A DNA stretch of 31,901 nt, taken from the IMG/VR virus record IMGVR_UViG_2537561827_000016. One strand, given 5' to 3'. Each line of letters opens with the position of its first letter. Position 1 is the first letter of the stretch. A program made the translations under genes and the position numbers. Source of the stretch: a virus (taxonomy: Duplodnaviria > Heunggongvirae > Uroviricota > Caudoviricetes). Shown here piece after piece: positions 1 through 17,458 of the stretch. The notes under the pieces are model-generated. The model worked only from the letters and a program-made list of their open reading frames with translations. It was not told the origin of the DNA and did no database searches.

Positions 1-501
1 ATGCGCATAGTTACCGCTGCCGTCATGGCCTCAACGCTGGCAGTCAGTTCATTAAGCCACGCTGCTGAAGTCGGTTCAGGCGATAACTGGCATCCGGGTG
101 AAGAACTTACGCAGCGCAGTACGCAGAGCCATATGTTCGACGGCATAAGTTTAACCGAACATCAGCGTCAGCAGATGCGAGATCTTATGCAACAGGCCCG
201 GCACGAACAGCCTCCTGTTAATGTTAGCGAACTGGAGACAATGCATCGCCTTGTCACCGCAGAAAATTTTGATGAAAACGCTGTGCGCGCACAGGCAGAA
301 AAAATGGCGAATGAGCAAATTGCTCGTCAGGTTGAGATGGCAAAAGTCCGCAACCAAATGTATCGCCTGTTAACGCCGGAGCAGCAAGCGGTTTTAAACG
401 AGAAACATCAACAACGAATGGAGCAGTTGCGCGACGTGACGCAATGGCAAAAAAGTTCATCGTTGAAGCTATTGAGTAGTAGCAACTCACGTTCCCAGTA
501 G
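1..501 (+). CDS. cpxP: Periplasmic stress adaptor CpxP (host gene flanking the prophage)
   Basis: The 166-aa translation reads as enterobacterial CpxP from my recall (signal peptide [36 protein letters not shown] and [22 protein letters not shown] motifs). Followed by a strong intrinsic terminator. Confidence 0.93.
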
Positions 502-541
502 TAAACCCTGTTTTCCTTGCCATAGACACCATCCCTGTCTT

Positions 542-568
542 CCCCCACATGATGTGGGGGTTTTTTTT
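542..568 (+). terminator. Rho-independent terminator of cpxP
   Basis: GC-rich inverted repeat cccccacat / atgtggggg followed directly by a run of eight T. Confidence 0.8.
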
Positions 569-687
569 ATCAATTACTTACATGCAATCAAAAGTAAAAA
601 CAGTCACTTATCGAAAGCTGTAAGGGTTTGGAGTGGTTTCAAAATTTCTTGAGTGTGGACACTATGTGGACACTCAGAGGGGGAAAT

Positions 688-1668
688 TTATAACGTCACT
701 CCGCCTTTTAGTGGATTCAGAGCGACGGCATTTTGCAGGTAGTCAGGCGCAAGGTGCGCATAGGCCATCGTCTGCTGAATGCTCGCATGTCCCAGAATCT
801 GTTGCAGTGCGATTATATTGCCCCCATTCATCATGAAATGGCTTGCGAATGTATGCCGCAGGATGTGGGTTGCCTGATTGGGTGGTATATCAGGTTTCAC
901 TCTGCGTAAAATCCCGCAAAATTTCTCATAATCAACTTTGAATAATTTGGCGCTGGCCTCCTCTTTAACTTTTTTCTCCAGTTCCTCAGAAATCGGCACG
1001 GTTCGCTTTTTACCGTTTTTGGTTTTCAGGAAGGTAACCCTGCAATTTGTAATCTGTGCTGGTTTTAGCGTGGCAACTTCCGTCCATCTTCCTCCAGTGC
1101 TCAGACATAAAAGCGCGACAAGTAAGTCATCACCAGCCAAAACATTTAACAGTTTTGCGATTTCTGCTTTTTCCAGGAACGTCATTTCAGGGTTGGCCTC
1201 CGCCAGTGGCGGCAGTCCGTGAATTGGGGGTTGCCCGGAAAATTCATCCAATTGAATTAATTTTGTGAACATGCCGGATAATCGGTACATGTCACGGTTT
1301 ATCGTTGCGGCACTGATACCATCACGTAGTCGCATGGAACGATAATCCATCAAAGCCCTTTTGCTCATCCGGCTCACTGGTATATCACCTATGCCGCTGA
1401 TGGTTTTGAGTAGATGATTAAACTCTTTTGTTCCATGCTCGTGGTTTTGCCCGTGATATTTCCACCAGATGTCCAGCAACTCACTCAAAGTTCGGCGGTC
1501 TGCTCGCTGGCCTCCCCATTCTTTCTGACTGGCATTGGCGATTGTGTATCGCTCAAATGCTAGTGCTTCAGCTTTTCTTTCGAATTTCCTGCGGATGCGT
1601 TTTCCGTCGCGACCGCGAGGTCTAATGTCCACTTCATAGCGACCATCATCGAGCTTCTTAATTGCCAT
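688..1668 (-). CDS. int: Tyrosine-type integrase, P2/186 family
   Basis: N-terminus MAIKKLDDGRYEVDIRP matches P2 Int as recalled; C-terminal catalytic region has HxLRHT-like (ATHILRHTFASHFM) and terminal MAYAH tyrosine motif. ATG at 1668 preferred over the upstream alternative start; GAGGG RBS just upstream on the minus strand. Confidence 0.9.
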   Translation of the reverse strand: MAIKKLDDGRYEVDIRPRGRDGKRIRRKFERKAEALAFERYTIANASQKEWGGQRADRRTLSELLDIWWKYHGQNHEHGTKEFNHLLKTISGIGDIPVSRMSKRALMDYRSMRLRDGISAATINRDMYRLSGMFTKLIQLDEFSGQPPIHGLPPLAEANPEMTFLEKAEIAKLLNVLAGDDLLVALLCLSTGGRWTEVATLKPAQITNCRVTFLKTKNGKKRTVPISEELEKKVKEEASAKLFKVDYEKFCGILRRVKPDIPPNQATHILRHTFASHFMMNGGNIIALQQILGHASIQQTMAYAHLAPDYLQNAVALNPLKGGVTL

Positions 1669-1737
1669 AAGAAAGCCCTCCGGCGCTGTATTCACCATCT
1701 TGGTAGCAAATGGTGAAAATGTAATCTTTATATAGAG

Positions 1738-2031
1738 TTAGCCAATCCTTTTCGCGGAGTGGTTGGACTCTGTTGACTCTGGCCCAATGTGCGCGAGAGC
1801 CGGTGCGATTTGTCCTGCGTCCGGCGCGGTTTTATCTGTCATAAGCCATAGAGCATATTTTTGGAATGTGGGATGCATAGTGATTTTTAGCAAAGCTGTG
1901 CCACCGGGTTCAAAGTTTCCTCCTTCATATTTTTTAAGTGTGCTTAGCGGTAACTCTATGATTTCACAGAATTTTGATTGGCTTAGCCCTTCAGCCTCAC
2001 GCAAGGCCTTAATCTTTTCGCTTAATTTCAT
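1738..2031 (-). CDS. C: Immunity repressor, P2 C-like (HTH)
   Basis: 97 aa; the FQKYALWLMTDKTAPDAGQIAPALAH segment matches the P2 C repressor C-terminus as recalled. Divergent from cox, as in the P2 lysis-lysogeny switch. Confidence 0.85.
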   Translation of the reverse strand: MKLSEKIKALREAEGLSQSKFCEIIELPLSTLKKYEGGNFEPGGTALLKITMHPTFQKYALWLMTDKTAPDAGQIAPALAHIGPESTESNHSAKRIG

Positions 2032-2152
2032 TTGACATGGTGCCTATATAGGGACTAAATTCCCTCAAAACTGGAACCTATATAGGTTCCATTGATTTGA
2101 GAATAAACCAGCGTCTAAACGGTTTTGAGTGGTTTAGAAAGGGCTGGATCCT
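2032..2152. promoter_or_regulatory. C/cox divergent switch region with candidate Pe/Pc promoters and operator palindromes
   Basis: TTGACA at 2032-2037 with CTAAAT 17 bp downstream (candidate rightward Pe). CCTATATAGG at 2043-2052, and again at 2077-2086 inside a perfect 18-bp palindrome GGAACCTATATAGGTTCC (2073-2090). Confidence 0.5.
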
Positions 2153-2440
2153 ATGAGGGTACCATATATGGACGCTGAAAATTATGTGATTCAGTATCCG
2201 CTTGATGCGGTTCATGTGGATAAATTTGCTGATTTATTAGGGAAGCCAAAGACAGCCGTCAGTGAAATGGTGAAAGCAAATAAATTACCAATTATTGAAT
2301 TGCGTGATCCTTGCAAACCGAAGGCTCGTGCCGGTGAAAAATGGGTTTTCATTCCTGAGTTTAATCGCGCTGTACGTGAGGCGTTTTATAACCGACCGGT
2401 TGAACAGCGTGATGCATGGCTCTTGTGGATGGGGTTGTGA
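2153..2440 (+). CDS. cox: Cox-like excisionase / switch regulator
   Basis: Position and size (about 90 aa) match P2 Cox, with some similarity to it (LPIIELRDP, WLLWMGL end). An alternative start at ATG 2168 has better GAGGG RBS spacing. Confidence 0.75.
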   Translation: MRVPYMDAENYVIQYPLDAVHVDKFADLLGKPKTAVSEMVKANKLPIIELRDPCKPKARAGEKWVFIPEFNRAVREAFYNRPVEQRDAWLLWMGL

Positions 2441-2442
2441 TT

Positions 2443-2613
2443 ATGAATGAGCCGCGTTGTATTGCTCAGTTACTGCGTAACGAAAGCCCCAGGGCGATTG
2501 ACTTCACCATCACCCACGGGAAGGGGCGCAAGGGAATCATTATCCGCACCAAAAAACAGAGTCCGTTAAAGAAGGCTCTGACCTTTCTGAAAAGCCGGAG
2601 GGTATGGAAATGA
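2443..2613 (+). CDS. Small basic early protein (P2 orf78 position)
   Basis: 56-aa ORF from ATG 2443, between cox and B; Lys/Arg-rich. No recognised domain. Confidence 0.45.
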   Translation: MNEPRCIAQLLRNESPRAIDFTITHGKGRKGIIIRTKKQSPLKKALTFLKSRRVWK

Positions 2614-3110
2614 CAGTGATGACGCTTAATCTCGTTGAAAAACAGCCAGCAGCTATGCGCCGGATAATTGGTAAGCATCTTGCCGTCCCTCGCTGGCAGG
2701 ATACATGTGATTATTATAATCAGATGATGGAGCGCGAACGGTTAACGGTTTGCTTCCATGCGCAGTTAAAACAACGTCACGCAACGATGCGTTTTGAAGA
2801 AATGAACGACGTCGAACGTGAACGGCTGGTTTGTGCAATTGATGAACTGCGTGGGGCATTCTCAAAACGCCGTCAGGTCGGTGCAAGTGAGTATGCATAT
2901 ATTAGTTTTTTAACAGTCAGTCAGCGCCGTACTTTATTTATGCATGCCGGATTGACTGAAAAAGAATTCAACCAGCCATACTGGCGAATTAATGAAGAAT
3001 CATGTTACTGGCGTGATGCCTTATTCCGTGCATTACGTGAATTATTCAGCCTGTTTGAGTATGCACCGACAATTCTGACGTCGGTTAAACCAGAGCAATA
3101 TCTGCATTAA
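2604..3110 (+). CDS. B: Replication protein B-like (putative helicase loader)
   Basis: 168 aa, same position and size as P2 gpB; GGAGGG RBS upstream of ATG 2604. Identity inferred mainly from synteny. Confidence 0.6.
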   Translation: MEMTVMTLNLVEKQPAAMRRIIGKHLAVPRWQDTCDYYNQMMERERLTVCFHAQLKQRHATMRFEEMNDVERERLVCAIDELRGAFSKRRQVGASEYAYISFLTVSQRRTLFMHAGLTEKEFNQPYWRINEESCYWRDALFRALRELFSLFEYAPTILTSVKPEQYLH

Positions 3111-3697: not shown

Positions 3698-3699
3698 TA

Positions 3700-3924: not shown

Positions 3925-4196
3925 GTATTCGTATTGAAATTGGCGAACGTTATGTCGTTACCAGTGACAGCTTTCAGTTTATTCTCCACGAGAGAAAGAG
4001 AGCGGAAAGCGGTAAAAACGCCGGTCAGGAATGGCTGGCAGTGGTTGGTTATTACCCGAAATTAAGCCAGCTCGTTTCCGGCCTGATGCATCACGATATT
4101 CTGACCGGAAGCGCAAAATCTTTTGCTGATTTAAACGCGCAGGTTGAGCAACTCAGCAAGCGTTGTTCAGAGGCTTTTGGCTCATATGGCCGTTAA
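3921..4196 (+). CDS. Hypothetical early protein (P2 orf83 position)
   Basis: 91-aa ORF immediately upstream of and overlapping the A gene start. Confidence 0.5.
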   Translation: MSIRIEIGERYVVTSDSFQFILHERKRAESGKNAGQEWLAVVGYYPKLSQLVSGLMHHDILTGSAKSFADLNAQVEQLSKRCSEAFGSYGR

Positions 4197-6462
4197 AGCC
4201 TCCGGGCGTTTTGTCCCTCCGTCAGTATTTGCCGCAGGCACCGGTAAGGCGTTTACCGGTGCTTATGCATGGAACGCGCCACGCGAGGCTGTCGGGCGCG
4301 AAAGACCCCTTACACGTGACGAGATGCGTCAGGTGCAGGGGGTTTTATCCACGATTAACCGCCTGCCTTACTTTTTGCGCTCGCTGTTTACTTCACGCTA
4401 TGACTACATCCGGCGCAATAAAAGCCCGGTGCACGGGTTTTATTTCCTCACATCCACTTTTCAGCGTCGTTTATGGCCGCGCATTGAGCGTGTGAATCAG
4501 CGCCATGAAATGAACACCGACGCGTCGTTACTGTTTCTGGCAGAGCGTGACCACTATGCGCGCCTGCCGGGAATGAATGACAAGGAGCTGAAAAAGTTTG
4601 TTGCCCGTATCTCATCGCAGCTTTTCATGATGTATGAGGAACTCAGCGATGCCTGGGTGGATGCGCATGGCGAAAAAGAATCGCTGTTTACGGATGAGGC
4701 GCAGGCTCACCTCTATGGTCATGTTGCTGGCGCTGCACGTGCTTTCAATATATCCCCGCTCTACTGGAAAAAATACCGTAAAGGGCAGATGACCACGAGG
4801 CAGGCATATTCTGCCATTGCCCGTCTGTTTAACGATGAGTGGTGGACTCATCAGCTTAAAGGCCAGCGTATGCGCTGGCATGAAGCGTTACTGATAGCTG
4901 TCGGGGAGGTCAATAAAGACCGTTCTCCTTATGCCAGTAAACACGCCATTCGTGATGTGCGTGCGCGCCGCCAGGCAAATCTGGAATTTCTTAAATCGTG
5001 TGACCTTGAAAACAGGGAAACCGGCGAGCGCATCGACCTTATCAGTAAGGTGATGGGCAGTATTTCTAATCCTGAAATTCGCCGGATGGAGCTGATGAAC
5101 ACCATTGCCGGTATTGAGCGTTACGCCGCCGCAGAGGGGGATGTGGGGATGTTTATCACGCTGACCGCGCCGTCAAAGTATCACCCGACTCGTCAGGTCA
5201 GAAAAGGCGAAAGTAAAACCGTTCAGCTTAATCACGGCTGGAACGATGAGGCATTTAATCCAAAGGATGCGCAGCGTTATCTCTGCCGCATCTGGAGCCT
5301 GATGCGCACGGCATTTAAGGATAATGATTTACAGGTCTACGGTTTGCGTGTCGTCGAGCCACACCACGACGGAACGCCGCACTGGCATATGATGCTTTTT
5401 TGTAATCCACGCCAGCGTAACCAGATTATCGAAATCATGCGTCGCTATGCGCTCAAAGAGGATGGTGACGAAAGAGGAGCCGCGCGAAACCGTTTTCAGG
5501 CAAAGCACCTTAACCGGGGCGGTGCTGCGGGATATATCGCGAAATACATTTCAAAAAATATCGACGGCTATGCACTGGATGGTCAGCTCGATAACGATAC
5601 CGGTAAGCCGCTTAAAGATACTGCCGCGGCTGTTACCGCATGGGCGTCAACGTGGCGCATCCCGCAATTTAAAACGGTTGGACTGCCGACAATGGGGGCT
5701 TACCGTGAACTACGCAAATTGCCTCGCGGCGTCAGTATTGCTGATGAGTTTGACGAACGCGTCGAGGCTGCTCGCGCTGCCGCAGACAGTGGTGATTTTG
5801 CGTTGTATATCAGCGCGCAGGGTGGGGCAAATGTCCCGCGCGATTGTCAGACTGTCAGGGTTGCCCGTAGCCCGTCGGATGACGTTAACGAGTACGAGGA
5901 AGAAGTCGAGAGAGTGGTCGGCATTTACGCGCCGCATCTCGGCGCGCGTCATATTCATATCACCAGAACGACGGACTGGCGCATTGTGCCGAAAGTTCCG
6001 GTCGTTGAGCCTTTGACTTTAAAAAGCGGCATCGCCGCGCCTCGGAGTCCTGTCAATAACTGTGGAAAGCTCACCGGTGGTGATACTTCGTTACCAGCCC
6101 CCACACCTTCTGAGCACGCCGCAGCAGTGCTTAATCTGGTTGATGACGGTGTCATCGAATGGAATGACCCGGAGGTCGTGAGGGCGCTCAGAGGTGCATT
6201 AAAACATGGCCTGAGAACACCAAATCGCCAGCAAAGAAACGGAAGCCCGTTAAAACCGCATGAAATGGCACCATCGGCCAGACTGACCCGGTCGGAACGA
6301 ATGCAAATTACCCGTATCCGCGTTGACCTTGCTCAGAACGGTATCAGGCCGCAGCGATGGGAGCTTGAGGCGCTGGCGCGTGGGGCAACCGTAAATTATG
6401 ACGGGAAAAAATTCACGTATCCGGTCGCTAATGAGTGGTCGGTTTTTTCAATTAAACAATAA
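4186..6462 (+). CDS. A: Replication initiation endonuclease A (rolling-circle nickase)
   Basis: About 758 aa from ATG 4186 (MAVKASGRF, the P2 gpA N-terminus as recalled). HWHMMLF HUH motif and a downstream tyrosine-containing region; very close to P2 A. The ORF track's upstream TTG start at 4144 is not preferred. Confidence 0.92.
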   Translation: MAVKASGRFVPPSVFAAGTGKAFTGAYAWNAPREAVGRERPLTRDEMRQVQGVLSTINRLPYFLRSLFTSRYDYIRRNKSPVHGFYFLTSTFQRRLWPRIERVNQRHEMNTDASLLFLAERDHYARLPGMNDKELKKFVARISSQLFMMYEELSDAWVDAHGEKESLFTDEAQAHLYGHVAGAARAFNISPLYWKKYRKGQMTTRQAYSAIARLFNDEWWTHQLKGQRMRWHEALLIAVGEVNKDRSPYASKHAIRDVRARRQANLEFLKSCDLENRETGERIDLISKVMGSISNPEIRRMELMNTIAGIERYAAAEGDVGMFITLTAPSKYHPTRQVRKGESKTVQLNHGWNDEAFNPKDAQRYLCRIWSLMRTAFKDNDLQVYGLRVVEPHHDGTPHWHMMLFCNPRQRNQIIEIMRRYALKEDGDERGAARNRFQAKHLNRGGAAGYIAKYISKNIDGYALDGQLDNDTGKPLKDTAAAVTAWASTWRIPQFKTVGLPTMGAYRELRKLPRGVSIADEFDERVEAARAAADSGDFALYISAQGGANVPRDCQTVRVARSPSDDVNEYEEEVERVVGIYAPHLGARHIHITRTTDWRIVPKVPVVEPLTLKSGIAAPRSPVNNCGKLTGGDTSLPAPTPSEHAAAVLNLVDDGVIEWNDPEVVRALRGALKHGLRTPNRQQRNGSPLKPHEMAPSARLTRSERMQITRIRVDLAQNGIRPQRWELEALARGATVNYDGKKFTYPVANEWSVFSIKQ

Positions 6463-6663
6463 TGACTACTACTGCAGTGTTGTGGGAATGTTATAGTGTT
6501 TGTGGAATTTTTCTATGAAAAACAATGAATTAATCTGTTTTTCATATTGAGCTAATTTTTTATGGCCACAGTTGTTAAAAAGTGAGAACATAATCTTGTT
6601 CAAAACCTGCTTCTATATACGGAGGCTTTCGCTATAATACGCGGTCGGTTTTAGGAGGGGATA

Positions 6664-7608
6664 ATGCCAACAGTAGTTTCACTTTTTTCTGGATGCGGTG
6701 GTTCCGATGCGGGGGTTTTGAGAGCCGGCTTTGATGTGCTTATGGCCAACGATATCTTGCCGTATGCGCGCGATGTTTATATTGCCAATCATCCAGAAAC
6801 TGATTACATATTAGGCAATATTGCTGATGTAACTACTTTTCCTAAATCTGATTTGCTGGTAGGTTGTTATCCATGTCAGGGATTCAGCCAGGGTGGTGCG
6901 CGTAAAGCCGATCGAAAAATTAATACTCTTTATTTAGAGTTTGCTAGAGCTTTAAACAATATAAAGCCTAAAGCTTTTATAGTAGAAAACGTGTCTGGTA
7001 TGGTTAGAAAAAATTTTGAGCATTTGTTATCTGACCAGATCAGGGTTTTTACTGAAGCAGGTTATACTGTTTCCGCAAAAGTTTTAAATGCGGCTGAATA
7101 TGGAGTAGCGCAGGAAAGAAAAAGAATATTTATCGTAGGAATCCGTAATGATTTCAAAGTTAAGTACGAGTTCCCTCAGCCAACTCATGGGCCAGCAACT
7201 GGCGTCAACTATGTTACTATTAAAGATGCTATAGGGCATTTACCTGAATGGCCAGAAGGGGAATTTTATGATATGGGATTCCATTGGTATTATATGTCTC
7301 GCAATCGTCGCCAGGATTGGGATCAAATTTCAAAGACAATAGTTGCTAATGCAAGGCATATGCCGTTGCATCCTGTCAGTCCTCCGATGGAGAAAGTAAG
7401 AACTGATGAATGGAGATTTGTTGAGGATCGGAGAGCTCGCAGATTCAGTTTTCGAGAGGCAGCACTATTACAAGGGTTTGAGGATCTAGTGTTTCCAGAA
7501 ACAAATGCTGCAAGTCTTGGCATGAAATACACGGTGGTTGGTAATGCAGTGCCTCCGCCGCTTTTTGAAGCTGTAACGAAGGCATTGCCAATAGAATTAT
7601 GGGATTGA
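6664..7608 (+). CDS. DNA (cytosine-5)-methyltransferase
   Basis: Canonical C5-MTase motifs in order: FSGCGG (I, AdoMet binding), PCQGFS (IV, catalytic Cys), ENV (VI), QERKRIF (VIII), REAALLQGF (IX) and GNAVPPPLF (X). AGGAGGGG RBS upstream; TATAAT at 6633-6638. Confidence 0.9.
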   Translation: MPTVVSLFSGCGGSDAGVLRAGFDVLMANDILPYARDVYIANHPETDYILGNIADVTTFPKSDLLVGCYPCQGFSQGGARKADRKINTLYLEFARALNNIKPKAFIVENVSGMVRKNFEHLLSDQIRVFTEAGYTVSAKVLNAAEYGVAQERKRIFIVGIRNDFKVKYEFPQPTHGPATGVNYVTIKDAIGHLPEWPEGEFYDMGFHWYYMSRNRRQDWDQISKTIVANARHMPLHPVSPPMEKVRTDEWRFVEDRRARRFSFREAALLQGFEDLVFPETNAASLGMKYTVVGNAVPPPLFEAVTKALPIELWD

Positions 7609-7615
7609 TAAGCTA

Positions 7616-8605
7616 TTAAGGCTCTGGATTTAATGTATAAAGCTCTTCCTCAAATTCGCGAAACCAATCAGAGGTAGTTATCGCTTCCCATTGGTTTGCC
7701 TTATCAAGTAGATATATGATTCTCAACCTATCTAATAATAATACCCCAGCGGTTGCGTGTGTGCTTACCCATTCGCCATTTGCTTCCCGATAGAAAACAG
7801 GCGTGAACATTGTTGATGGATGCTGGAACGCAATTTGGAAATAGGTGGTCAGTTTTAACACGTTAGCCTCTAATGTTTTGCTTGGCCACCCTGTTTCTTG
7901 TGCACCACATTGACCAAGAATTCCATAGTTGCTAGTTTGACCATCAGGAAATTCCACTGTAGCAATTAGGTCAAACCCGGCATCACCAGATGTGGGAGCT
8001 CTATTTATTTCCCTTGTGTTTAAACTACAAACTCCAAGATCTTTTCCTAAAGTTTGTAGAGCTGTCCGAAGATTTGTTCCATAATAATTTTGCCTATCAT
8101 CGGAGTTAGCATCAAAAATTCTTACGGTGCCATGTGCAGGTAAGAGAGAAATCATTGCTACTTTACATACTCTGGCAAAGCTCTTTGCCCAACGTTGTGC
8201 TGCTCCTTTAATCGACTTAAAGGATCTAAGTCTAGAGCAGCAAAGAAGAAAAACATATATTCGTTGTTGTTGGTTTAGATTTTCTTTAATAATTATCTCA
8301 TCACCTGAAATTATAAATGGATATATTTTTCCAAGAGCACTTTCTCTATATTCGAGTTGTGTCCAAACATCTTCGAGTTGCTCTTCAAAACGATCATTTC
8401 TCTCAGCGTCTCCATTAATTTCTTCTTCAGAATTACATTCTTCATCAATTTCTTCAACGCTTGTTATGCCGAATTTTCTTACTGAATCTAAATCATTTTT
8501 ATGTAGTGAGTTACGTCCGGTATAATTAATTACCGTGAGTAACTCGGCTAAATCTGCAAACAAATGAGGAGAGTTGGGATGCATAACTCCTACTTCAAAA
8601 GTCAT
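7616..8605 (-). CDS. Hypothetical protein; candidate effector (possible restriction endonuclease) convergent with the MTase
   Basis: About 329-aa ORF ending 7 bp from the MTase stop, tail-to-tail; overlaps the upstream ParB-like gene by about 11 nt. Acidic cluster EEIDEECNSEEEINGDAERNDRFEEQLED. No family recognised by eye. Start chosen at ATG 8605 after the GAGG RBS; 8608 is an alternative. Confidence 0.6.
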   Translation of the reverse strand: MTFEVGVMHPNSPHLFADLAELLTVINYTGRNSLHKNDLDSVRKFGITSVEEIDEECNSEEEINGDAERNDRFEEQLEDVWTQLEYRESALGKIYPFIISGDEIIIKENLNQQQRIYVFLLCCSRLRSFKSIKGAAQRWAKSFARVCKVAMISLLPAHGTVRIFDANSDDRQNYYGTNLRTALQTLGKDLGVCSLNTREINRAPTSGDAGFDLIATVEFPDGQTSNYGILGQCGAQETGWPSKTLEANVLKLTTYFQIAFQHPSTMFTPVFYREANGEWVSTHATAGVLLLDRLRIIYLLDKANQWEAITTSDWFREFEEELYTLNPEP

Positions 8606-9716
8606 CATCACCTCTGCTATTTTTCTCTGCTATTTCAGAACCTATAAGCTTAATATGTTTATTGATTCTTCGTGCTACTTCATGGGCCTGTCTATCATAC
8701 TCTACCGTGGCAACCATGCCTGCTGCATCTATCAAAGCTGCTTCAACTTGATAAAGTAACTGGAGAAAGTCCTTAGTAATATCAGATGTCAATTGATAGG
8801 CAACTGCGAGTGGAGCCCCCATTCGGAATTGCTCCAATGCCTTAGGGCTACTTACAACAGCAGCTAGTTCTCTTAAATTACGTGATTCTCCTACACGAGT
8901 TTTTTTATCCTCGCCTTTTTTATATAACCATTCAGTTAGTTCTTTTATTTCTTTGTTCTTTAAACTCTTAGAATTGATGATAGGATGACTTGGTATTGTG
9001 TCTCCATCGTCTTCGATTGAAACTCCGACAAACTGGCCTAACCGCTCATCAGCAAGTGCTGTTGATAATACTGAAAATTTAATCGTTTCTTCATCTAGCT
9101 TTTCAATACCATAAAAATCATTTTTTTTAATGATTTCATACACCGCTAAAGCGTCTAGGTTACGCTTGATATGATCCCTACGACTGCCAATAGCTCTGGC
9201 AACCTCATAGTAGCGTAGCATTGGATCCAGATTTGCATTGGTATAATCAAAAAGCTGTTTAATATATCGAGCTTTTGATAAGGGTTCCCATTGTTTGACA
9301 CCAGTAATATGTCTGAAACCAAGGTACGGAAGAATCTCTTCTCTTGTTTGGCGCTCAATGACAGGAACACGATCGACCGTATGTTTTGCATTTGATGCAA
9401 TTTCTCGTAGTCGAGCACTTGGATTTTCACATAGTGTCGGATCGCGGAATAATTTGACCGCGGATAGGCGACGGTTTCCTTCAACTACAATGTACTTCCC
9501 CGGCGCTCCACTATCAGGAATGACAATCAATGGTTCTCCAGGGAAAAAACCATTTTCCGCAATAGCACTCATTAAGTCTTCGATAGATGTTGAGGTTGCT
9601 ATGTAGTTAATCATTCCCAATTGGTCACGAGACACGCCTTCAGGAAGTCTTGGGTTTTCTGTGTCAAGTTCCAAATCATCTAGCGGAACATAAAGTATTT
9701 CTGAATCAGCAATCAT
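8595..9716 (-). CDS. ParB/Srx-like nuclease-domain protein
   Basis: N-terminal region ILYVPLDDLELDTENPRLP ... PLIVIPDSGAPGKYIVVEGNRRLSAVKL resembles the ParB N-terminal fold (PNPxQPR-like box followed by a GxRRxxA box). C-terminal roughly 230 aa unassigned. First ATG at 9716 with GGAG RBS; the ORF track's TTG start at 9755 is not preferred. Confidence 0.7.
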   Translation of the reverse strand: MIADSEILYVPLDDLELDTENPRLPEGVSRDQLGMINYIATSTSIEDLMSAIAENGFFPGEPLIVIPDSGAPGKYIVVEGNRRLSAVKLFRDPTLCENPSARLREIASNAKHTVDRVPVIERQTREEILPYLGFRHITGVKQWEPLSKARYIKQLFDYTNANLDPMLRYYEVARAIGSRRDHIKRNLDALAVYEIIKKNDFYGIEKLDEETIKFSVLSTALADERLGQFVGVSIEDDGDTIPSHPIINSKSLKNKEIKELTEWLYKKGEDKKTRVGESRNLRELAAVVSSPKALEQFRMGAPLAVAYQLTSDITKDFLQLLYQVEAALIDAAGMVATVEYDRQAHEVARRINKHIKLIGSEIAEKNSRGDDDF

Positions 9717-9942
9717 CTGGATCTCCGTTGAACATGTCCACGAGAAGGAGCACAAAGTTATTTCATAACATGCAATATACTCATTCTGTAGCCATAAATG
9801 AATTATTCATGATGTAAGATTCGCGTTGATGTGCGTGAATTCGCAAGTAATTATACAGCAAGGTTTGATTGGGTATCGTCAGCACCAGTGCGGTTCCAAC
9901 GTACTCATGCAACTGCATTAAAACCGCCCCATGAAGCGGGCG

Positions 9943-9961
9943 GGCGAGGCGGGGAAAGCAC
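9943..9961. other. cos site (19-nt cohesive end, P2-type)
   Basis: GGCGAGGCGGGGAAAGCAC matches the P2 cohesive-end sequence as I recall it, in the expected position just beyond the portal gene Q. Confidence 0.7.
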
Positions 9962-10101
9962 TGCGCGCTGGCGGTGGTGCTGATTTTATTTTTTCAGCGT
10001 CTGAGCGCGTCTTGATGGCGTTTAGATTGTGCGCCGGGGCGTTGGTGTGTCTACGGGGTGTTTTGTGCGGTGGTGAGCGTGTGAGGGCGTGATGACGGGG
10101 T

Positions 10102-10125
10102 GTAAAAAAGCCGCCCGCAGGCGGC
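10102..10125 (-). terminator. Rho-independent terminator after Q (end of the P-Q operon)
   Basis: Hairpin GCCGCC-CGCA-GGCGGC preceded on the plus strand by AAAAAA, which is a T-run after the hairpin on the minus strand, directly downstream of the Q stop. Confidence 0.6.
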
Positions 10126-10130
10126 GATGT

Positions 10131-11165
10131 TCAGCCGTTGTCAGTGTCCAGTGAGTAGTTTTTAAAGCGGATGACCTCCTGGCCGAGCCAGCCGTTTATT
10201 TCCCGAATCCTGTCCTGTAACGGGATAAGTTCATTGCGGACAAAGACCTTTGCCACTTTCTCAATATCACCCAGCGACCCGACGTTCTCCGGCTTGCCGC
10301 CCATCAACTGAAAGGGGATGCGGTGCGCGTCCAGCAGGTCAGCGGCGCTGGCTTTTTTGATATTAAAAAAATCGTCCTTCGTTGCCACTTCACTGAGCGG
10401 GATAATTTTAATGCCGTCGGCTTTCCCCTGCGGGGCATAGAGAAACAGATTTTTAAAGTTGTTGCGGCCTTTCGACTTGACCATGTTTTCGCGAAGCATT
10501 TCGATATCGTTGCGATCCTGCACGGCATCAGTGACGTACATGATGTATCCGGCATGTGCGCCATTTTCGTAATACTTGCGGCGGAACAGCGTGGCCGACT
10601 CATTCAGCCAGGCAGAGTTAAGGGCGCTGAGATATTCCGGCAGGCCGTACAGCTCCTGATTAATATCCGGCTCCAGCAGGTGAAACACGGAGCCGGGCGC
10701 GAAGGCTGTCGGCTCGTTGAAGGACGGCACCCACCAGTAAACATCCTCTTCCACACCACGGCGGGGATATTTTGCCGGTGAGGTTTCCAGCCTGATAACT
10801 TTACCGGTGGTGCTGTAACGCTTTTCCAGAAATGCATTACCAAATACCAGAAAATCCAGCACAAAGCGGCTGAAATCCTGCTGGGAAAGCCATGGATGCG
10901 GGATAAATGTCGAGGCCAGAATATTACGTTTGACGTAAATCGGTGAGCTGTGATGCACGGCAGCACGCAGGCTTTTCGCCAGACCGGTAAAGCTGACCGG
11001 TGGCTCATACCATCTGCCGTTACTGATGCACTCGACGTAATCCAGAATGTCACGCCGGTCGAGTACCGGCACCGGCTCACCAAAGGTGAATGCCTCCATT
11101 TTCGGGGCGCTGGCGGTCATTTTTTTTGCCGCAGGTTGCGGTGTTTTCCCTTTTTTCTTGCTCAT
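10131..11165 (-). CDS. Q: Portal protein
   Basis: 344 aa, same length as P2 gpQ; sequence matches the P2 portal as recalled. Confidence 0.93.
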   Translation of the reverse strand: MSKKKGKTPQPAAKKMTASAPKMEAFTFGEPVPVLDRRDILDYVECISNGRWYEPPVSFTGLAKSLRAAVHHSSPIYVKRNILASTFIPHPWLSQQDFSRFVLDFLVFGNAFLEKRYSTTGKVIRLETSPAKYPRRGVEEDVYWWVPSFNEPTAFAPGSVFHLLEPDINQELYGLPEYLSALNSAWLNESATLFRRKYYENGAHAGYIMYVTDAVQDRNDIEMLRENMVKSKGRNNFKNLFLYAPQGKADGIKIIPLSEVATKDDFFNIKKASAADLLDAHRIPFQLMGGKPENVGSLGDIEKVAKVFVRNELIPLQDRIREINGWLGQEVIRFKNYSLDTDNG

Positions 11166-12937
11166 CAGTAAAACTCCAGAATGGTGGATGTCAGCGGGGT
11201 GCTGATACCGGCGGTGAGTGGCTCATTTAACAGGGCGTGCATGGTCGCCCAGGCGAGGTCGGCGTGGCTGGCTTCCTCGCTGCGGCTGGCCTCATAGGTG
11301 GCACTGCGTCCGCTGCTGGTCATGGTCTTGCGGATAGCCATAAACGAGCTGGTGATGTCGGTGGCGCTGACGTCATATTCCAGACAGCCACGGCGGATAA
11401 CGTCTTTTGCCTTGAGCACCATTGCGGTTTTCATTTCCGGCGTGTAGCGGATATCGCGCGCGGCGGGATAGAACGAGCGCACGAGCTGGAACACGCCGAC
11501 ACCGAGGCCGGTGGCATCAATTCCGATGTATTCGACGTTGTATTTTTCGGTGAGTTTGCGGATGGATTCCGCCTGGGTGGCAAAGTCCATGCCTTTCCAC
11601 TGGTGACGCTCAAGTATTCTGAATTTGCCACCGGCCACCACCGGCGGTGCCAGTACCACGCATCCGGCGCTGTCGCCACGGTGTGACGGGTCGTAACCAA
11701 TCCATACCGGACGTGAGCCGAACGGATTTGCGGCAAACGGCGCATAGTCTTCCCATTCTTCCAGCGTGTCGACCATGCAGCGTTGCAGCTCCTCGAACGG
11801 GAACACCGATGCCTTGTCGTCAACAAATTCACACATGAACAGGTTTTTAAAATCGTCGGCGCTGTTTTCGCGTTTAAGCTGCTCAATGTCGAACAATGTG
11901 CAGCCGCCTTTCAGGGCGTCCTCAATGGTGACAATCTGCCGCCACTGGCCGTCCGCACAGAGAAGCCCACCGGCAAGGGCGTTATGACTGACGTCGATTT
12001 CCACGCGTTCAGCGGCGCTGGCGCGTCCCCGGTTAAACAGTTCACCCGACCAGAACGGGTAGGCGTCGTGCGCCAGCGTGGACGGGGGGGAGAAATAGGT
12101 CGAGCGCAGGTGACTCTGTGAGGCCATACCTGATGCCACCTTACGCAGTACCTGAAAATTCGGGATCCAGAAAATCTCGTCGACGTACAGGTCACCGTTA
12201 TGGCTCTGTGCGGTGTTGGAGTTGGTGCCGAGAAAAATCAGTTTTGCGCCGTTATTGCCCAGGACAATCGGGTCACCGGTCAGGTCAACGTCAACCAGAC
12301 GGGCAAAGGCGATGATGTATTCGCGGAACACATACGCCTGCGTTTTACTGGCCGACAGAAAAATCTGGTTATGACCGGTTTTCAGGGCACGCAGCAGCGC
12401 CTCGCGGGAAAAATAAAACGTTGCGCCAATCTGGCGGGATTTCAGGATATCGCGGATGCGGTGCTCAAGCCCGGCGCGATACCAGTGCAACTGATAGTCG
12501 AAAGACTGCTCAAAGAAAATCTGCTCCAGCTTTTCGATGGCCTCGTCACTGAAAAAATTCTTTTTCGGTTTGCGACGCCCGCCTTTGTTGCGGTTAGCGA
12601 CGTTCGGATTAAGGTCTGCCTCGTTGCCGGTCTGACTGTAGCGGTTTATCCGTGCCAGTCGTTCAATCTGGCGTCCGAGCAGGTCAATTTCCTTGAAGTC
12701 ACCGCCGGTTTTCTGCGGTTTGATGATGAGCTGGGTCAGCCGCGCTTCCAGACTCATTTCGACACGGCTGATGGGGGCAACGCTGTCCCAGCCGTCGCGC
12801 TGTTTCCAGCTCTGCACCGTCGGGCGTTTCATCTGCAACATGGCGGCAATCTGCGGCACGGAAAATCCCTGCCAGTACAGCAGCGCCGCCTGACGACGCG
12901 GGTCGTGTAAAAGAGTGGTGTCTGTGGTGATGGTCAT
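11165..12937 (-). CDS. P: Terminase large subunit (ATPase/nuclease)
   Basis: 590 aa from ATG 12937 (MTITTDTTLLHDPRRQAALLYWQGF, the P2 gpP start as recalled). Divergent from O, as in P2. Confidence 0.93.
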   Translation of the reverse strand: MTITTDTTLLHDPRRQAALLYWQGFSVPQIAAMLQMKRPTVQSWKQRDGWDSVAPISRVEMSLEARLTQLIIKPQKTGGDFKEIDLLGRQIERLARINRYSQTGNEADLNPNVANRNKGGRRKPKKNFFSDEAIEKLEQIFFEQSFDYQLHWYRAGLEHRIRDILKSRQIGATFYFSREALLRALKTGHNQIFLSASKTQAYVFREYIIAFARLVDVDLTGDPIVLGNNGAKLIFLGTNSNTAQSHNGDLYVDEIFWIPNFQVLRKVASGMASQSHLRSTYFSPPSTLAHDAYPFWSGELFNRGRASAAERVEIDVSHNALAGGLLCADGQWRQIVTIEDALKGGCTLFDIEQLKRENSADDFKNLFMCEFVDDKASVFPFEELQRCMVDTLEEWEDYAPFAANPFGSRPVWIGYDPSHRGDSAGCVVLAPPVVAGGKFRILERHQWKGMDFATQAESIRKLTEKYNVEYIGIDATGLGVGVFQLVRSFYPAARDIRYTPEMKTAMVLKAKDVIRRGCLEYDVSATDITSSFMAIRKTMTSSGRSATYEASRSEEASHADLAWATMHALLNEPLTAGISTPLTSTILEFY

Positions 12938-13110
12938 GAATACCTCGCCGTGATGAATACACGGCAAGGCTACTGAGTCGCGCCCCGCGATTCGCTAAGG
13001 TGCTGTTGTGTCAGTGATAAGCCATCCGGGACTGATGGCGGAGGATGCGCATCGTCGGGAAACTGATGCCGACATGTGACTCCTCTAATCACTATTCAGG
13101 ACTCCTGACA

Positions 13111-13965
13111 ATGGCAAAAAAAGTCTCAAAATTCTTTCGTATCGGCGTTGAGGGTGACACCTGTGACGGGCGTGTCATCAGTGCGCAGGATATTCAGGAA
13201 ATGGCCGAAACCTTTGACCCGCGTGTCTACGGTTGCCGCATTAACCTGGAACATCTGCGCGGCATCCTGCCTGACGGTATTTTTAAGCGTTATGGCGATG
13301 TGGCCGAACTGAAGGCCGAAAAGATTGACGATGACTCGGCGCTGAAAGGCAAATGGGCGCTGTTTGCGAAAATCACCCCGACCGATGACCTTATCGCGAT
13401 GAACAAGGCCGCGCAGAAGGTCTACACCTCAATGGAAATTCAGCCGAACTTTGCCAACACCGGCAAATGTTATCTGGTGGGGCTGGCCGTCACCGATGAC
13501 CCGGCAAGCCTCGGCACGGAATACCTGGAATTCTGCCGCACGGCAAAACACAACCCCCTGAACCGCTTCAAATTAAGCCCTGAAAACCTGATTTCAGTGG
13601 CAACGCCTGTTGAGCTGGAATTTGAAGACCTGCCTGAAACCGTGTTCACCGCCCTGACCGAAAAGGTGAAGTCCATTTTTGGCCGCAAACAGGCCAGCGA
13701 TGATGCCCGTCTGAATGACGTGCATGAAGCGGTGACCGCTGTTGCTGAACATGTGCAGGAAAAACTGAGCGCCACTGAGCAGCGCCTCGCTGAGATGGAA
13801 ACCGCCTTTTCCGCACTTAAGCAGGAGGTGACTGACAGGGCGGATGAAACCAGCCAGGCATTCACCCGCCTGAAAAACAGTCTCGACCACACCGAAAGTC
13901 TGACCCAGCAGCGCCGCAGCAAAGCCACCGGCGGTGGCGGTGACACGCTGATGACGAACTGCTGA
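13111..13965 (+). CDS. O: Capsid scaffolding protein
   Basis: 284 aa from ATG 13111 (MAKKVSKFFRIGVEGDTCDGRVISAQDIQEMAETFDP), matching P2 gpO size and N-terminus as recalled. Confidence 0.9.
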   Translation: MAKKVSKFFRIGVEGDTCDGRVISAQDIQEMAETFDPRVYGCRINLEHLRGILPDGIFKRYGDVAELKAEKIDDDSALKGKWALFAKITPTDDLIAMNKAAQKVYTSMEIQPNFANTGKCYLVGLAVTDDPASLGTEYLEFCRTAKHNPLNRFKLSPENLISVATPVELEFEDLPETVFTALTEKVKSIFGRKQASDDARLNDVHEAVTAVAEHVQEKLSATEQRLAEMETAFSALKQEVTDRADETSQAFTRLKNSLDHTESLTQQRRSKATGGGGDTLMTNC

Positions 13966-14023
13966 CCGGCGTCAGTCAGTCCGGGAAAACCTTCACGATT
14001 AACCCTTAATTTCAGGAAAAACT

Positions 14024-15097: not shown

Positions 15098-15100
15098 CCG

Positions 15101-15850
15101 ATGACGAGTCCCGCACAGCGCCACATGATGCGGGTCTCGGCAGCGATGACCGCGCAGCGGGAAGCCGCCCCGCTGCGACATGCAACTGTCTATGAGCAGA
15201 TGCTGGTCAAGCTGGCCGCAGACCAGCGCACACTGAAAGCGATTTATTCAAAAGAGCTTAAGGCCGCGAAAAAGCGCGAACTGCTGCCGTTCTGGTTGCC
15301 GTGGGTGAACGGTGTGCTGGAGCAGGGCAAAGGTGCACAGGATGACATTCTGATGACGGTCATGCTGTGGCGTCTGGATACCGGCGATATTGCCGGTGCG
15401 CTGGAGATTGCCCGTTATGCCCTGAAGTACGGTCTGACCATGCCGGGTAAACACCGCCGTACCCCGCCGTACATGTTCACCGAGGAGGTAGCGCTTGCGG
15501 CCATGCGCGCTCACGCTGCCGGTGAGTCTGTGGATACCCGCCTGCTGACGGAGACCCTTGAACTGACCGCCACGGCTGACATGCCTGATGAAGTGCGCGC
15601 AAAGCTGCACAAAATTACCGGTCTGTTTCTGCGTGACGGTGGTGATGCCGCCGGTGCGCTGGCGCACCTGCAACGTGCGACACAGCTCGACTGTCAGGCA
15701 GGCGTCAAAAAAGAGATTGAACGACTGGAGCGGGAGCTGAAACCGAAGCCGAAGCCGAAGCCGGAGCCAAAAGCGGTCACCCGCGCCCCGCGTAAGACCC
15801 GGAGCGTGACACAGGAAAAACGTGGACGCCCGAAAAAGAAAGCCAGTTAA
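15101..15850 (+). CDS. M: Terminase small subunit
   Basis: 249 aa, P2 gpM position; basic C-terminal tail with a KPKPKPKPEPK repeat. Confidence 0.9.
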   Translation: MTSPAQRHMMRVSAAMTAQREAAPLRHATVYEQMLVKLAADQRTLKAIYSKELKAAKKRELLPFWLPWVNGVLEQGKGAQDDILMTVMLWRLDTGDIAGALEIARYALKYGLTMPGKHRRTPPYMFTEEVALAAMRAHAAGESVDTRLLTETLELTATADMPDEVRAKLHKITGLFLRDGGDAAGALAHLQRATQLDCQAGVKKEIERLERELKPKPKPKPEPKAVTRAPRKTRSVTQEKRGRPKKKAS

Positions 15851-15949
15851 CAACCGAATGCGCCCCGCGCCAGGGCGGCACGCCGGTCAGTGTGGGTGAA
15901 TCACCTGACACTGTACCGGCGTCCACCGCCCGACTTTTCTGAGGTAGTC

Positions 15950-16662: not shown

Positions 16663-16665
16663 CGC

Positions 16666-17444: not shown

Positions 17445-17458
17445 ACGGAGTAAACACC

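What the first reader, a model, noticed from the sequence alone, without database searches (positions are those of the whole stretch)
9756..10130. cos site with P2-type 19-nt cohesive end placed between the cargo cassette and Q
GGCGAGGCGGGGAAAGCAC at 9943-9961 fixes the packaging origin and shows the cargo cassette sits at the right end of the virion genome, next to cos, exactly where P2 old/tin lie. The GC-rich segment between cos and Q also carries the Q terminator. The AT-rich 9756-9942 stretch presumably holds the promoter of the ParB-like operon.
Basis: partly seen in the sequence, partly recalled or inferred. Interest (0 to 1): 0.4.

Follow-up and report, generated by a model that had tools for sequence, protein, structure and literature searches.

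The report
Ordinary P2-type phage cos site
This is the normal DNA-packaging cut site (cos) of a P2-family prophage in E. coli, sitting where it is already known to sit, next to a variable defence-gene slot, so it is correct but ordinary.

Summary
GGCGAGGCGGGGAAAGCAC occurs once, at 9943-9961, and is identical to the annotated left cohesive end of phage P2 and of P4. The window holds a whole P2-like prophage (about 525-31155) inserted beside cpxP.

It is colinear with Yersinia phage HQ103, a phage isolated as virions. HQ103 carries the same three-gene cargo at 99.9% identity. Its record is linearised exactly at 9942|9943, and its 19-nt 5' cohesive ends were called from virion reads.

The Q terminator is real (10104-10125, minus strand) and matches P2's annotated tQ. 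Portal and both terminase genes are intact. The position of the cargo, between gene A and cos, is the published P2 defence hotspot where old and tin lie.

The promoter claim is plausible but unproven. Much of the stretch assigned to a promoter (9818-9942) is instead a patchily conserved cos flank. Across 217 loci, blocks at -125..-94 and -66..-49 sit at a fixed distance from the cut, in both helper phages and satellites.

Separately, tail-fibre gene H is frameshifted at 22478/22479, so the prophage may not make infectious particles.

Verdict: already known, low interest.

The parts
9943..9961 (+). 19-nt cohesive-end sequence GGCGAGGCGGGGAAAGCAC. The inferred top-strand nick is 9942|9943 and the bottom-strand nick 9961|9962, giving 5' overhangs.
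   Evidence: Unique exact match with 0 expected by chance. Identical to P2 cosL 1..19 and to P4. The HQ103 record begins and ends exactly here. Cut geometry is taken from the phage 186 annotation and from PhageTerm on HQ103.
9907..9968 (.). Conserved cos core, -36 to +25 relative to the top-strand cut: ATGCAACTGCATTAAAACCGCCCCATGAAGCGGGCG | 19 nt | TGCGCGC. It corresponds to the '55-bp cos' of the literature.
   Evidence: Shared by the window, P2, P4, 186 and HQ103. Near-invariant in 217 distinct IMG/VR loci, both helpers and satellites. The window scores 63.9 bits, at the 78th percentile. The 55-bp figure comes from PMC9594776, PMC2231350 and PMC3931495.
9924..9943 (.). Inverted repeat CCGCCC-N8-GGGCGG abutting the top-strand nick, inside the cos core. 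On the minus strand it reads as a terminator-like hairpin followed by TTTTAAT.
   Evidence: Terminator scan and fold of -13.8 kcal/mol. The stem is only partly kept in 186, so conservation looks like that of a duplex DNA sequence rather than an RNA structure (inference).
9877..9894 (.). Block B of the cos flank (-66..-49). This is a degenerate copy (CGTCAGCACCAGTGCGGT) of a GC-rich palindrome, consensus cgCCAG.gCTGGCgcGG.
   Evidence: Same ungapped register in the pooled loci. It is the strongest inverted-repeat centre in the flank, at -59.5. The window scores 12.4 bits, 38th percentile, and 0 of 1000 shuffles reach that.
9818..9849 (.). Block A of the cos flank (-125..-94). This is a degenerate copy (..TGCGTGAATTCGCAAG..) of the TGCAT-repeat element, consensus tgcat..a.gTGCATg..tTTGCATgcg.
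   Evidence: TGCA[TA] starts at -124, -120, -111 and -101 in 25-75% of loci, against a 1.5% background, for both P2-type and 186-type cos sets. Present in P2, P4 and 186. The window scores 11.9 bits, 24th percentile, and 0 of 1000 shuffles reach that.
9962..10103 (.). GC-rich spacer between cos and the Q terminator, specific to helper phages. It is conserved in Q-encoding loci and not in satellites beyond +26.
   Evidence: Per-column conservation. Identical to HQ103 up to about +57, then 4 mismatches before Q. No function has been shown.
10104..10125 (-). tQ, the intrinsic terminator of the leftward P-Q operon: GCCGCC-UGCG-GGCGGC followed by U6, five bases downstream of the Q stop.
   Evidence: Terminator scan and fold of -14.4 kcal/mol. 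The sequence is identical to P2's annotated 'tQ' 160..181.
10131..11165 (-). Gene Q, portal protein (344 aa).
   Evidence: 99.4% identical and full length against HQ103 gpQ. Pfam Phage_portal. Same position as P2 Q 187..1221.
11165..12937 (-). Gene P, large terminase subunit (590 aa), with an N-terminal gpP-type HTH domain.
   Evidence: 99.7% identical and full length against HQ103. Pfam Terminase_5, Terminase_6N and Terminase_6C.
15101..15850 (+). Gene M, small terminase subunit (249 aa).
   Evidence: 95.6% identical and full length against HQ103 gpM. Pfam Phage_term_smal, 3.5e-48.
8595..9716 (-). First cargo gene, next to cos: a 373-aa protein with a weak ParB N-terminal signature that is a distant relative of PD-lambda-5_A.
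   Evidence: PADLOC PD-Lambda-5_A 4.6e-28, covering part of the protein. TIGR00180 scores 31.6 bits, below its cutoff. Pfam ParB_N E=0.15. PDB ParB 4umk E=0.028. phrog_3694, unknown function. RefSeq names it 'ParB N-terminal domain-containing protein'.
7616..8605 (-). Second cargo gene: a 329-aa protein of unknown function. It overlaps the stop of the first gene by 11 nt, so the two are probably one operon.
   Evidence: No Pfam, NCBIfam, PADLOC or PDB match. phrog_3984, unknown function. 100% identical to HQ103 gp42.
6664..7608 (+). Third cargo gene, convergent with the other two: a C-5 cytosine DNA methyltransferase (314 aa).
   Evidence: Pfam DNA_methylase 5.5e-65. TIGR00675 dcm. PADLOC DruM and MTase_II models.
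9774..9802 (-). Best candidate sigma-70 promoter for the ParB-like operon: -35 TTCATT (9802-9797), 17-bp spacer, -10 TATATT (9779-9774). The predicted start is near 9767, about 51 nt upstream of ATG 9716. The palindrome ATGAAT-T-ATTCAT (9798-9810) overlaps the -35.
   Evidence: Top PWM hit at 10.45, against a shuffle median best of 8.55 and a 95th percentile of 11.9, so not significant. Inference only.

Best explanation
Window 9907-9968 is the cos site of a P2-like (Peduovirus) prophage of E. coli.

Inferred from P2 biology: after excision and replication, the phage terminase (gpP large subunit, gpM small subunit) recognises this site on circular phage DNA. It nicks the top strand between 9942 and 9943 and the bottom strand between 9961 and 9962. 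This yields a linear genome of about 30.6 kb with 19-nt 5' cohesive ends.

Shown from colinearity with P2 and HQ103: the left end of that genome starts GGCGAGGCGGGGAAAGCAC and runs into Q and P. The right end carries the variable cargo, here a Dcm-like methyltransferase, an unknown protein and a ParB-N-like protein, in the slot that P2 uses for tin and old.

Shown: the GC-rich DNA between cos and Q ends with the intrinsic terminator of the leftward P-Q operon.

Inferred: DNA left of the core keeps weaker, fixed-register conserved blocks out to about -125 (9818) that probably belong to the packaging signal. The cargo operon's promoter is then most likely confined to about 9717-9817.
For: The motif is a unique exact 19-mer with none expected by chance. 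It is identical to the annotated P2 cosL and to P4.

The flanking core -36..+25 is conserved with P2, P4 and 186 and with 217 distinct loci.

The whole prophage is colinear with the virion-isolated phage HQ103, and the break between the two alignment blocks falls exactly at 9942|9943. The 250 bp left of the cut and 57 bp to its right are identical to HQ103. HQ103's 19-nt 5' cohesive ends were derived from virion reads (PMC10321612).

Q, P, M, O, N and L are full length at 95.6-99.7% identity to HQ103, with portal and terminase Pfam domains.

The terminator is confirmed. P2's tin and old occupy the same slot, and the old-tin mRNA starts 149-151 bp left of the cut and runs leftward.

The hotspot between gpA and gpQ, next to cos, is described in PMC9122126 and PMC9519451.
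Against: No virion DNA from this particular prophage was examined; cleavage is inferred from a near-identical phage. Tail-fibre gene H is frameshifted, and the downstream tail-fibre assembly gene is annotated as truncated in sister prophages. Infectious particles may therefore not form without help. Blocks A and B are degenerate here (24th and 38th percentile), and their role in packaging is untested. No significant promoter was found.
Confidence: 0.95

Rival explanations
1. The cos sequence is intact, but it sits in a prophage that can no longer make infectious virions because its tail-fibre module has decayed. In this host, cos would then only be used if a co-resident P2-like phage supplies tail fibres, or it would be used to fill particles that cannot infect.
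For: H is split into 21877-22596 and 22593-23777 by a 265-bp deletion (two 132-bp repeat units plus 1 nt) relative to the 722-aa protein of sister prophages. The tail-fibre assembly gene downstream is annotated as N-terminally truncated in those sister prophages.
Against: All other HQ103 structural, lysis, replication and packaging proteins are full length. The lesion lies in a tandem repeat, where assemblies often collapse, so it may be an assembly error. It does not change what the cos site is.
Confidence: 0.35
2. The AT-rich DNA at 9756-9942 is essentially the promoter and regulatory region of the ParB-like operon, and is not part of the packaging signal. The conserved blocks would then be promoter, terminator or operator elements kept alongside the hotspot.
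For: In P2 the mapped old-tin transcript starts lie 149-151 bp left of the cut, and the matching -35 falls within block A. The window has a perfect TATAAT (9855-9850, minus strand) next to block A, and a TTCATT-17-TATATT candidate at 9802-9774. In P4, block A forms a terminator-like hairpin after psu.
Against: Blocks A and B sit at a constant distance from the cut in satellites, which have no leftward cargo operon there, as well as in helpers whose cargo is unrelated. No promoter candidate exceeds shuffled sequence. The promoter positions differ between P2 and this window, while the block positions do not.
Confidence: 0.3
3. The site belongs to a P4-like satellite, or is an isolated cos remnant, rather than to a helper phage.
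For: P4 carries the identical 19-mer and core.
Against: The site is followed directly by Q and P and is embedded in a complete, colinear P2-type genome, int to ogr, spanning about 525-31155.
Confidence: 0.01

Closest known systems
cos of bacteriophage P2 (NC_001895: cosL 1..19, cosR 33575..33593)
   Same: The 19-nt end is identical. To the left of the cut, the 31 bp of homology (from TGCATT) differ from P2 at one base, and the right flank up to tQ and Q is nearly identical. The order of old/tin slot, cos, tQ, Q and P is the same.
   Different: The cargo left of about -40 is unrelated: a methyltransferase, an unknown protein and a ParB-N-like protein instead of tin and old. Positions -38..-32 match P4 and 186 (TGCAACTGCATT) better than P2 itself (TTAAGGTGCATT). 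The distal TGCAT block is degenerate.
Yersinia phage HQ103 (NC_070908 / MZ420230; Peduovirus HQ103)
   Same: The cargo cassette and cos are the same (99.9% over 6400-9942, and identical from -250 to +57). The genome record is cut at the same base. The 19-nt 5' ends were called from virion reads.
   Different: HQ103 has a different tail-fibre module (H and G) and an extra gene between G and FI. It was isolated as a free phage on Y. pestis, whereas the window copy is integrated next to cpxP in E. coli and has a frameshifted H.
P2 defence hotspot between gpA and gpQ, next to cos (Rousset et al. 2022, PMC9122126; Vassallo et al. 2022, PMC9519451; Odegrip et al. 2006)
   Same: The location is the same: a variable cassette flanked by the replication gene A and cos/Q. 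Homology to other P2-like phages resumes about 34-42 bp left of the cut.
   Different: This cassette was not shown here to defend against phage. Only its ParB-N-like protein resembles a PADLOC family (PD-lambda-5_A), and only partially.
cos of satellite P4 and of phage 186
   Same: The core from -36 to +25 is shared, as are blocks A and B at the same distances from the cut.
   Different: The 186 end differs at two bases (GGCGTGGCGGGGAAAGCAT). P4 has no conservation with this window right of +26 and has no Q or P genes.
lambda cos (cosQ-cosN-cosB), as an analogy for a multipartite packaging site
   Same: There is a nicking site with staggered cuts, plus flanking conserved elements at fixed distances. 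This comparison rests on general knowledge and was not tested here.
   Different: There is no sequence similarity. The P2 overhang is 19 nt against 12 nt in lambda. P2 and P4 prefer monomeric circles as packaging substrate (PMC2231350). The conserved flank lies on the genome's right-end side of the cut.

Membership tests
P2-type cos site (Peduoviridae cohesive-end packaging site) | A 19-nt GC-rich cohesive-end sequence, 5'-GGCGAGGCGGGGAAAGCAC-3' | tested here: met
   Exact and unique at 9943-9961. Equal to P2 cosL. The same sequence is quoted in PMC3931495.
P2-type cos site (Peduoviridae cohesive-end packaging site) | A conserved core of about 55 bp around the ends, shared by P2, P4 and 186 | tested here: met
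   Positions -36..+25 are conserved. The window scores 63.9 bits, at the 78th percentile of 216 loci.
P2-type cos site (Peduoviridae cohesive-end packaging site) | Position between the variable region on the gene A side and the leftward Q-P (portal and large terminase) operon with its terminator tQ | tested here: met
P2-type cos site (Peduoviridae cohesive-end packaging site) | Cognate terminase subunits gpP and gpM encoded intact in the same element | tested here: met
   Full length at 99.7% and 95.6% identity to HQ103. Pfam terminase domains present.
P2-type cos site (Peduoviridae cohesive-end packaging site) | Unit genome length between cos copies that fits a P2-size head | tested here: met
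   The prophage at about 525-31155 gives about 30.6 kb. This is within the 28.9-34.8 kb range of deposited P2-like genomes listed.
P2-type cos site (Peduoviridae cohesive-end packaging site) | Staggered cleavage in vivo that gives 5' 19-nt overhangs on virion DNA | not testable with these tools
   Not measured for this prophage. For HQ103, whose sequence is identical from -250 to +57, PhageTerm on virion reads gave these ends (PMC10321612).
Rho-independent terminator (tQ of P2) | A GC-rich stem-loop followed by a U tract directly downstream of the Q stop, on the Q strand | tested here: met
   6-bp all-GC stem, 4-nt loop and U6 at 10125-10104 on the minus strand. Fold energy -14.4 kcal/mol. Identical to P2's annotated tQ. 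Termination itself was not measured.
P2 hotspot #1 cargo (the old/tin slot) | A variable, non-essential cassette between gene A and cos, differing between otherwise homologous P2-like phages | tested here: met
   Only HQ103 among 50,697 phage records shares it. Other P2-like phages match only from about 9901-9909 rightward and left of about 6500. 48 E. coli genomes carry it.
P2 hotspot #1 cargo (the old/tin slot) | Anti-phage (exclusion) activity of the cassette | not testable with these tools
   Only domain hints exist: a Dcm-like methyltransferase and a PD-lambda-5_A-like protein.
PD-lambda-5 defence system | Both PD-lambda-5 components (A and B) present | tested here: inconclusive
   The A-like match is partial (4.6e-28, residues 9-282 on 7-277 of a 440-position profile). 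The listed hits for the methyltransferase are DruM, MTase_II, DrmMII and oMTase models (only the best 25 of 63 families were shown), and the 329-aa protein matches nothing. The system is described as a compact RM+Abi in PMC9519451.
ParB/Srx N-terminal domain proteins | A match to the ParB_N domain above the curated threshold | tested here: not met
   Pfam ParB_N E=0.15, 12.6 bits against a cutoff of 26.3. TIGR00180 31.6 bits against 58.45. PDB ParB 4umk E=0.028. phrog_1033 3e-7. The matches are weak but all fall on residues near 41-96.
P4-like satellite cos | cos embedded in a satellite genome (psu/sid/delta, no capsid or terminase genes) | tested here: not met
   Q, P and the full P2 gene set flank the site.

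The most novel reading that the evidence does not exclude
The packaging signal of P2-, 186- and P4-type elements may not be just the textbook 55-bp core. It may be a tripartite site reaching about 125 bp into the right end of the genome. The three parts would be the core (-36..+25), a GC-rich palindrome at -66..-49, and a TGCAT-repeat block at -125..-94. They are held at fixed distances by spacers of constant length but free sequence, and they are shared by helpers and by the satellites that hijack their terminase. Under this reading, the defence hotspot's true right-hand boundary is about -125, and cargo swaps that erode blocks A and B, as in this window and in many close P2 relatives, trade packaging efficiency for new cargo. 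I could not read the 1990 paper that defined the site, so this may already be known.
Probability: 0.3. Interest if true: 0.4.

Novelty: already known. Interest (0 to 1): 0.12.

Why it matters
As stated, the finding adds nothing new. The P2 cohesive end, its place next to Q, and the variable defence slot beside it are all in the literature. A near-identical phage with the same cargo has had its ends mapped. The practical value is for annotation. The finding fixes the virion map of this prophage, with the left end at 9943 and the right end at 9942. It places the methyltransferase / unknown / ParB-N-like cassette in P2 hotspot #1. It also shows that packaging functions are intact even though the tail-fibre gene looks broken. 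The one point worth a specialist's glance is the fixed-register conservation left of the core. If it is functional, it would redefine the minimal cos used in P2/P4 cosmids and the boundary at which defence cassettes are exchanged.

Tried and rejected
- **Rfam.** A scan of the whole window at gathering thresholds gave no match, so no known RNA family explains the intergenic region.
- **Promoter scans.** The consensus scan found no upstream minus-strand promoter; its only minus-strand hits overlap the start codon or lie right of cos. My own PWM scan gave a best candidate of 10.45, below the 95th percentile of shuffles. P2's experimentally mapped old promoter also scores only 7.98 with the same PWM, so this method cannot decide.
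- **att repeat.** I looked for an attL/attR direct repeat and found no shared stretch of 10 nt or more between 400-700 and 31050-31350. The prophage ends were therefore set by homology to HQ103.
- **Block B as an RNA hairpin.** Pairs are mostly of a single type with almost no compensatory changes, so there is no covariation support. It is better read as a conserved DNA palindrome.
- **Core hairpin 9924-9943 as a conserved structure.** The stem is broken in 186.
- **Chance match and satellite origin.** Both were rejected.
- **Literature.** The original cos paper (PubMed 2265763) is not held. The HQ103 papers give no transcript data for the cargo genes. Two literature searches failed on term rules.
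- **Function of the 329-aa protein.** Pfam, NCBIfam, PADLOC and PDB sequence searches gave nothing usable.

Full report
**Observation.** The sequence GGCGAGGCGGGGAAAGCAC is at window 9943-9961 on the + strand. It is the only match in 31.9 kb even with three mismatches allowed, and none of 100 dinucleotide-preserving shuffles gave a match. It lies in the gap between a minus-strand cargo gene and the stop codon of a minus-strand 344-aa ORF at 10131. GC content steps from about 0.40 to about 0.59 across the site. The intergenic region is therefore 9717-10130.

**Identity of the site.**
- P2 (NC_001895) annotates bases 1..19 as 'cosL; left cohesive end', 160..181 as terminator tQ, 187..1221 as Q (portal) and 1221..2993 as P (terminase), both genes on the complementary strand.
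- The P2 19-mer is identical to the window's, and so is P4's. Phage 186 differs at two bases.
- Joining the P2 ends and aligning them to the window shows that homology starts 31 bp left of the cut, continues through the 19-mer, and runs on to Q with few changes.
- A five-way ungapped comparison of the window, P2, HQ103, P4 and 186 shows a shared core from about -36 to +25: ATGCAACTGCATTAAAACCG.CCC...AAGCGGGC | 19 nt | TGCGCGC. This matches the '55-bp cos' quoted from Ziermann & Calendar 1990 in PMC9594776, PMC2231350 and PMC3931495.

**Context.**
- The window is a complete P2-type prophage. blastn against Yersinia phage HQ103 (NC_070908, 31,962 bp, isolated as virions) gives window 525-9942 = HQ103 22551-31962 at 98.8%, and window 9943-21699 = HQ103 1-11751 at 97.1%. 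The two blocks meet exactly at 9942|9943.
- Every annotated HQ103 protein except H, G, gp21 and two small unnamed ORFs I did not test is found full length in the window. That includes Q at 99.4%, P at 99.7%, M at 95.6%, O, N and L.
- Pfam confirms the portal, the large terminase (with the gpP-type N-terminal HTH), the small terminase, the integrase and GPA.
- The left host flank encodes a 166-aa LTXXQ protein, which I read as CpxP (inference). The closest chromosomal copies are in enterotoxigenic E. coli strains such as 67-1 and TW11681, at 99.9%.
- The unit genome is about 30.6 kb, within the range of deposited P2-like phages.

HQ103 is identical to the window from 250 bp left of the cut to 57 bp right of it, and it carries the same cargo at 99.9%. 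Its authors report 19-nt 5' cohesive ends GTGCTTTCCCCGCCTCGCC, derived by PhageTerm from virion reads (PMC10321612). That is the reverse complement of the motif. The cut geometry (top strand at the 5' end of the 19-mer, bottom strand at its 3' end) is as annotated for 186.

**Cargo position.**
- In P2 the slot between A/orf91 and cosR holds tin (30684-31445) and old (31620-33380). Both are leftward, with old-tin mRNA starts 149-151 bp left of the cut.
- In the window the same slot holds three genes. The first is a C-5 cytosine methyltransferase (6664-7608, +). The second is a 329-aa protein of unknown function (7616-8605, -). The third is a 373-aa protein (8595-9716, -) that matches PADLOC PD-lambda-5_A partially and ParB_N only below threshold.
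- This is the published hotspot. Rousset et al. describe it as lying between gpA and gpQ and directly adjacent to cos, with 1,650 gene arrangements in 18,150 occurrences (PMC9122126). Vassallo et al. found four defence systems there and describe PD-lambda-5 as a compact RM+Abi system (PMC9519451).

**Terminator.** On the minus strand, five bases after the Q stop, GCCGCC-UGCG-GGCGGC is followed by UUUUUU (10125-10104). The scan finds it and it folds at -14.4 kcal/mol. It is base-for-base the element P2 annotates as tQ.

**Promoter claim.**
- By analogy with P2's old promoter, a leftward promoter upstream of 9716 is expected.
- The consensus scan finds none upstream of the gene on that strand.
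- A simple PWM ranks TTCATT (9802-9797), a 17-bp spacer and TATATT (9779-9774) first, at 10.45. That is above the shuffle median of 8.55 but below the 95th percentile of 11.9.
- A perfect TATAAT at 9855-9850 has no usable -35.
- The same PWM gives P2's mapped old promoter only 7.98, so sequence alone cannot settle the point.
- The claim remains plausible but unproven.

**What else is in the 'AT-rich stretch'.**
- I anchored IMG/VR loci on the exact 19-mer, using the P2-type and, independently, the 186-type end.
- Comparing 217 distinct flanks without gaps shows that conservation left of the cut is patchy but in a fixed register. The first patch is the core. The second is a GC-rich palindrome at -66..-49 (cgCCAG.gCTGGCgcGG). 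The third is a TGCAT-repeat block at -125..-94.
- TGCA[TA] starts at -124, -120, -111, -101, -35 and -29 in 25-99% of loci, against 1.5% per position overall.
- The blocks occur in loci that encode Q and in loci that do not (satellite type). In the satellite type nothing is conserved right of +26.
- P2, P4 and 186 all have the blocks.
- The TGCAT motifs at -111 and -101 are in about 80% of 186-like helpers and of satellites, but in only 44-58% of close P2 relatives.
- The window's copies are degenerate yet far above chance. Block A (9818-9849) scores 11.9 bits, 24th percentile. Block B (9877-9894) scores 12.4 bits, 38th percentile. In both cases 0 of 1000 shuffles reach the observed score.
- Block B shows no compensatory changes, so it reads as a DNA palindrome and not an RNA stem.
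- My inference is that these blocks are accessory parts of the packaging signal, because satellites share only packaging requirements with helpers. They could instead be conserved transcription elements. HQ103 is viable with the degenerate version, so they are not strictly essential. I could not read the 1990 paper, so I make no claim that this is new.

**State of the prophage.**
- Gene H (tail fibre) is split into 21877-22596 and 22593-23777.
- Alignment with sister prophages that encode intact 678-aa and 722-aa proteins shows that the window lacks two 132-bp repeat units plus one base at 22478/22479.
- The downstream tail-fibre assembly gene is annotated as N-terminally truncated in those relatives. 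The window's 144-aa ORF matches tail-fibre assembly families only from about profile position 43.
- If the frameshift is real, the prophage can cut and package at cos but may not make infectious particles. Collapse of a tandem repeat during assembly is an alternative explanation.

**Verdict.** The finding is right in its essentials and is a textbook feature: a P2-type cos in its canonical place, beside the known defence hotspot, with the Q terminator next to it. It is already known, so interest is low. The residual points of interest are the fixed-register flank blocks and the uncharacterised cargo cassette.

Noticed in passing
window 9818-9849 and 9877-9894; IMG/VR loci L011-L250; P2 L002 7452-7482; the last 125 bp of P4 L006 and 186 L007: Left of the 55-bp cos core there are two further conserved blocks at a constant distance from the cut: TGCAT repeats at -125..-94 and a GC-rich palindrome at -66..-49. 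They are separated by spacers of fixed length but unconserved sequence. They occur in both helper phages and satellites, and for both P2-type and 186-type ends. The papers I could read mention only a 55-bp cos.
   Followed up: partly
window 21877-23777 (junction at 22478/22479): Tail-fibre gene H is frameshifted. Relative to the intact 722-aa protein of sister prophages (WP_000216969.1), the window lacks two 132-bp tandem repeat units plus one base, which splits H into 239-aa and 394-aa ORFs. This could be a real lesion or a collapsed repeat in the assembly.
   Followed up: yes
window 23753-24187 and on to about 24400; L009, L010, L251: The tail-fibre assembly gene after H looks N-terminally truncated. 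Sister prophages carry two partial tail-fibre assembly pseudogenes in opposite orientation, like the remains of an invertible tail-fibre segment, with no invertase gene present.
   Followed up: partly
window 6664-9716: The cargo cassette has three genes: a Dcm-like C5 methyltransferase, convergent with a two-gene operon of an unknown 329-aa protein (phrog_3984) and a 373-aa weakly ParB-N-like protein that partially matches PD-lambda-5_A. It looks like a compact restriction-modification-like defence module. It is found in HQ103 and in 48 complete E. coli genomes, and its function is untested.
   Followed up: partly
window 9798-9810: A perfect palindrome, ATGAAT-T-ATTCAT, overlaps the -35 of the best promoter candidate for the ParB-like operon. 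It may be an operator, or it may be chance in AT-rich DNA.
   Followed up: no
window 9962-10030: The 45 bp or so right of the core (TGGCGGTGGTGCTGATTTTATTTTTTCAGCGTCTGAGCGCGTC) are conserved among Q-encoding P2-type loci but absent from satellites. They include a weak + strand terminator-like hairpin (9965-9980 plus a T-rich tail). No function is known.
   Followed up: partly
window 9831-9983 and 9931-10092: Two small + strand ORFs (50 and 53 aa) run across cos. Several deposited P2-like phage records annotate a 'hypothetical protein' over this spot, but P2 RefSeq does not. They are probably annotation artefacts.
   Followed up: no
window 1-524 and 31156-31901: The prophage is inserted just downstream of a 166-aa LTXXQ-family gene, which I read as cpxP. 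No direct repeat of 10 nt or more marks attL and attR, so the att core must be short or imperfect. The ORF on the right flank (31260-31901) has no Pfam match.
   Followed up: partly
window 24188-24517: The second P2 hotspot (the Z/fun slot between G and FI) is essentially empty here, at about 330 bp. HQ103 carries a 299-aa gene in that position.
   Followed up: no
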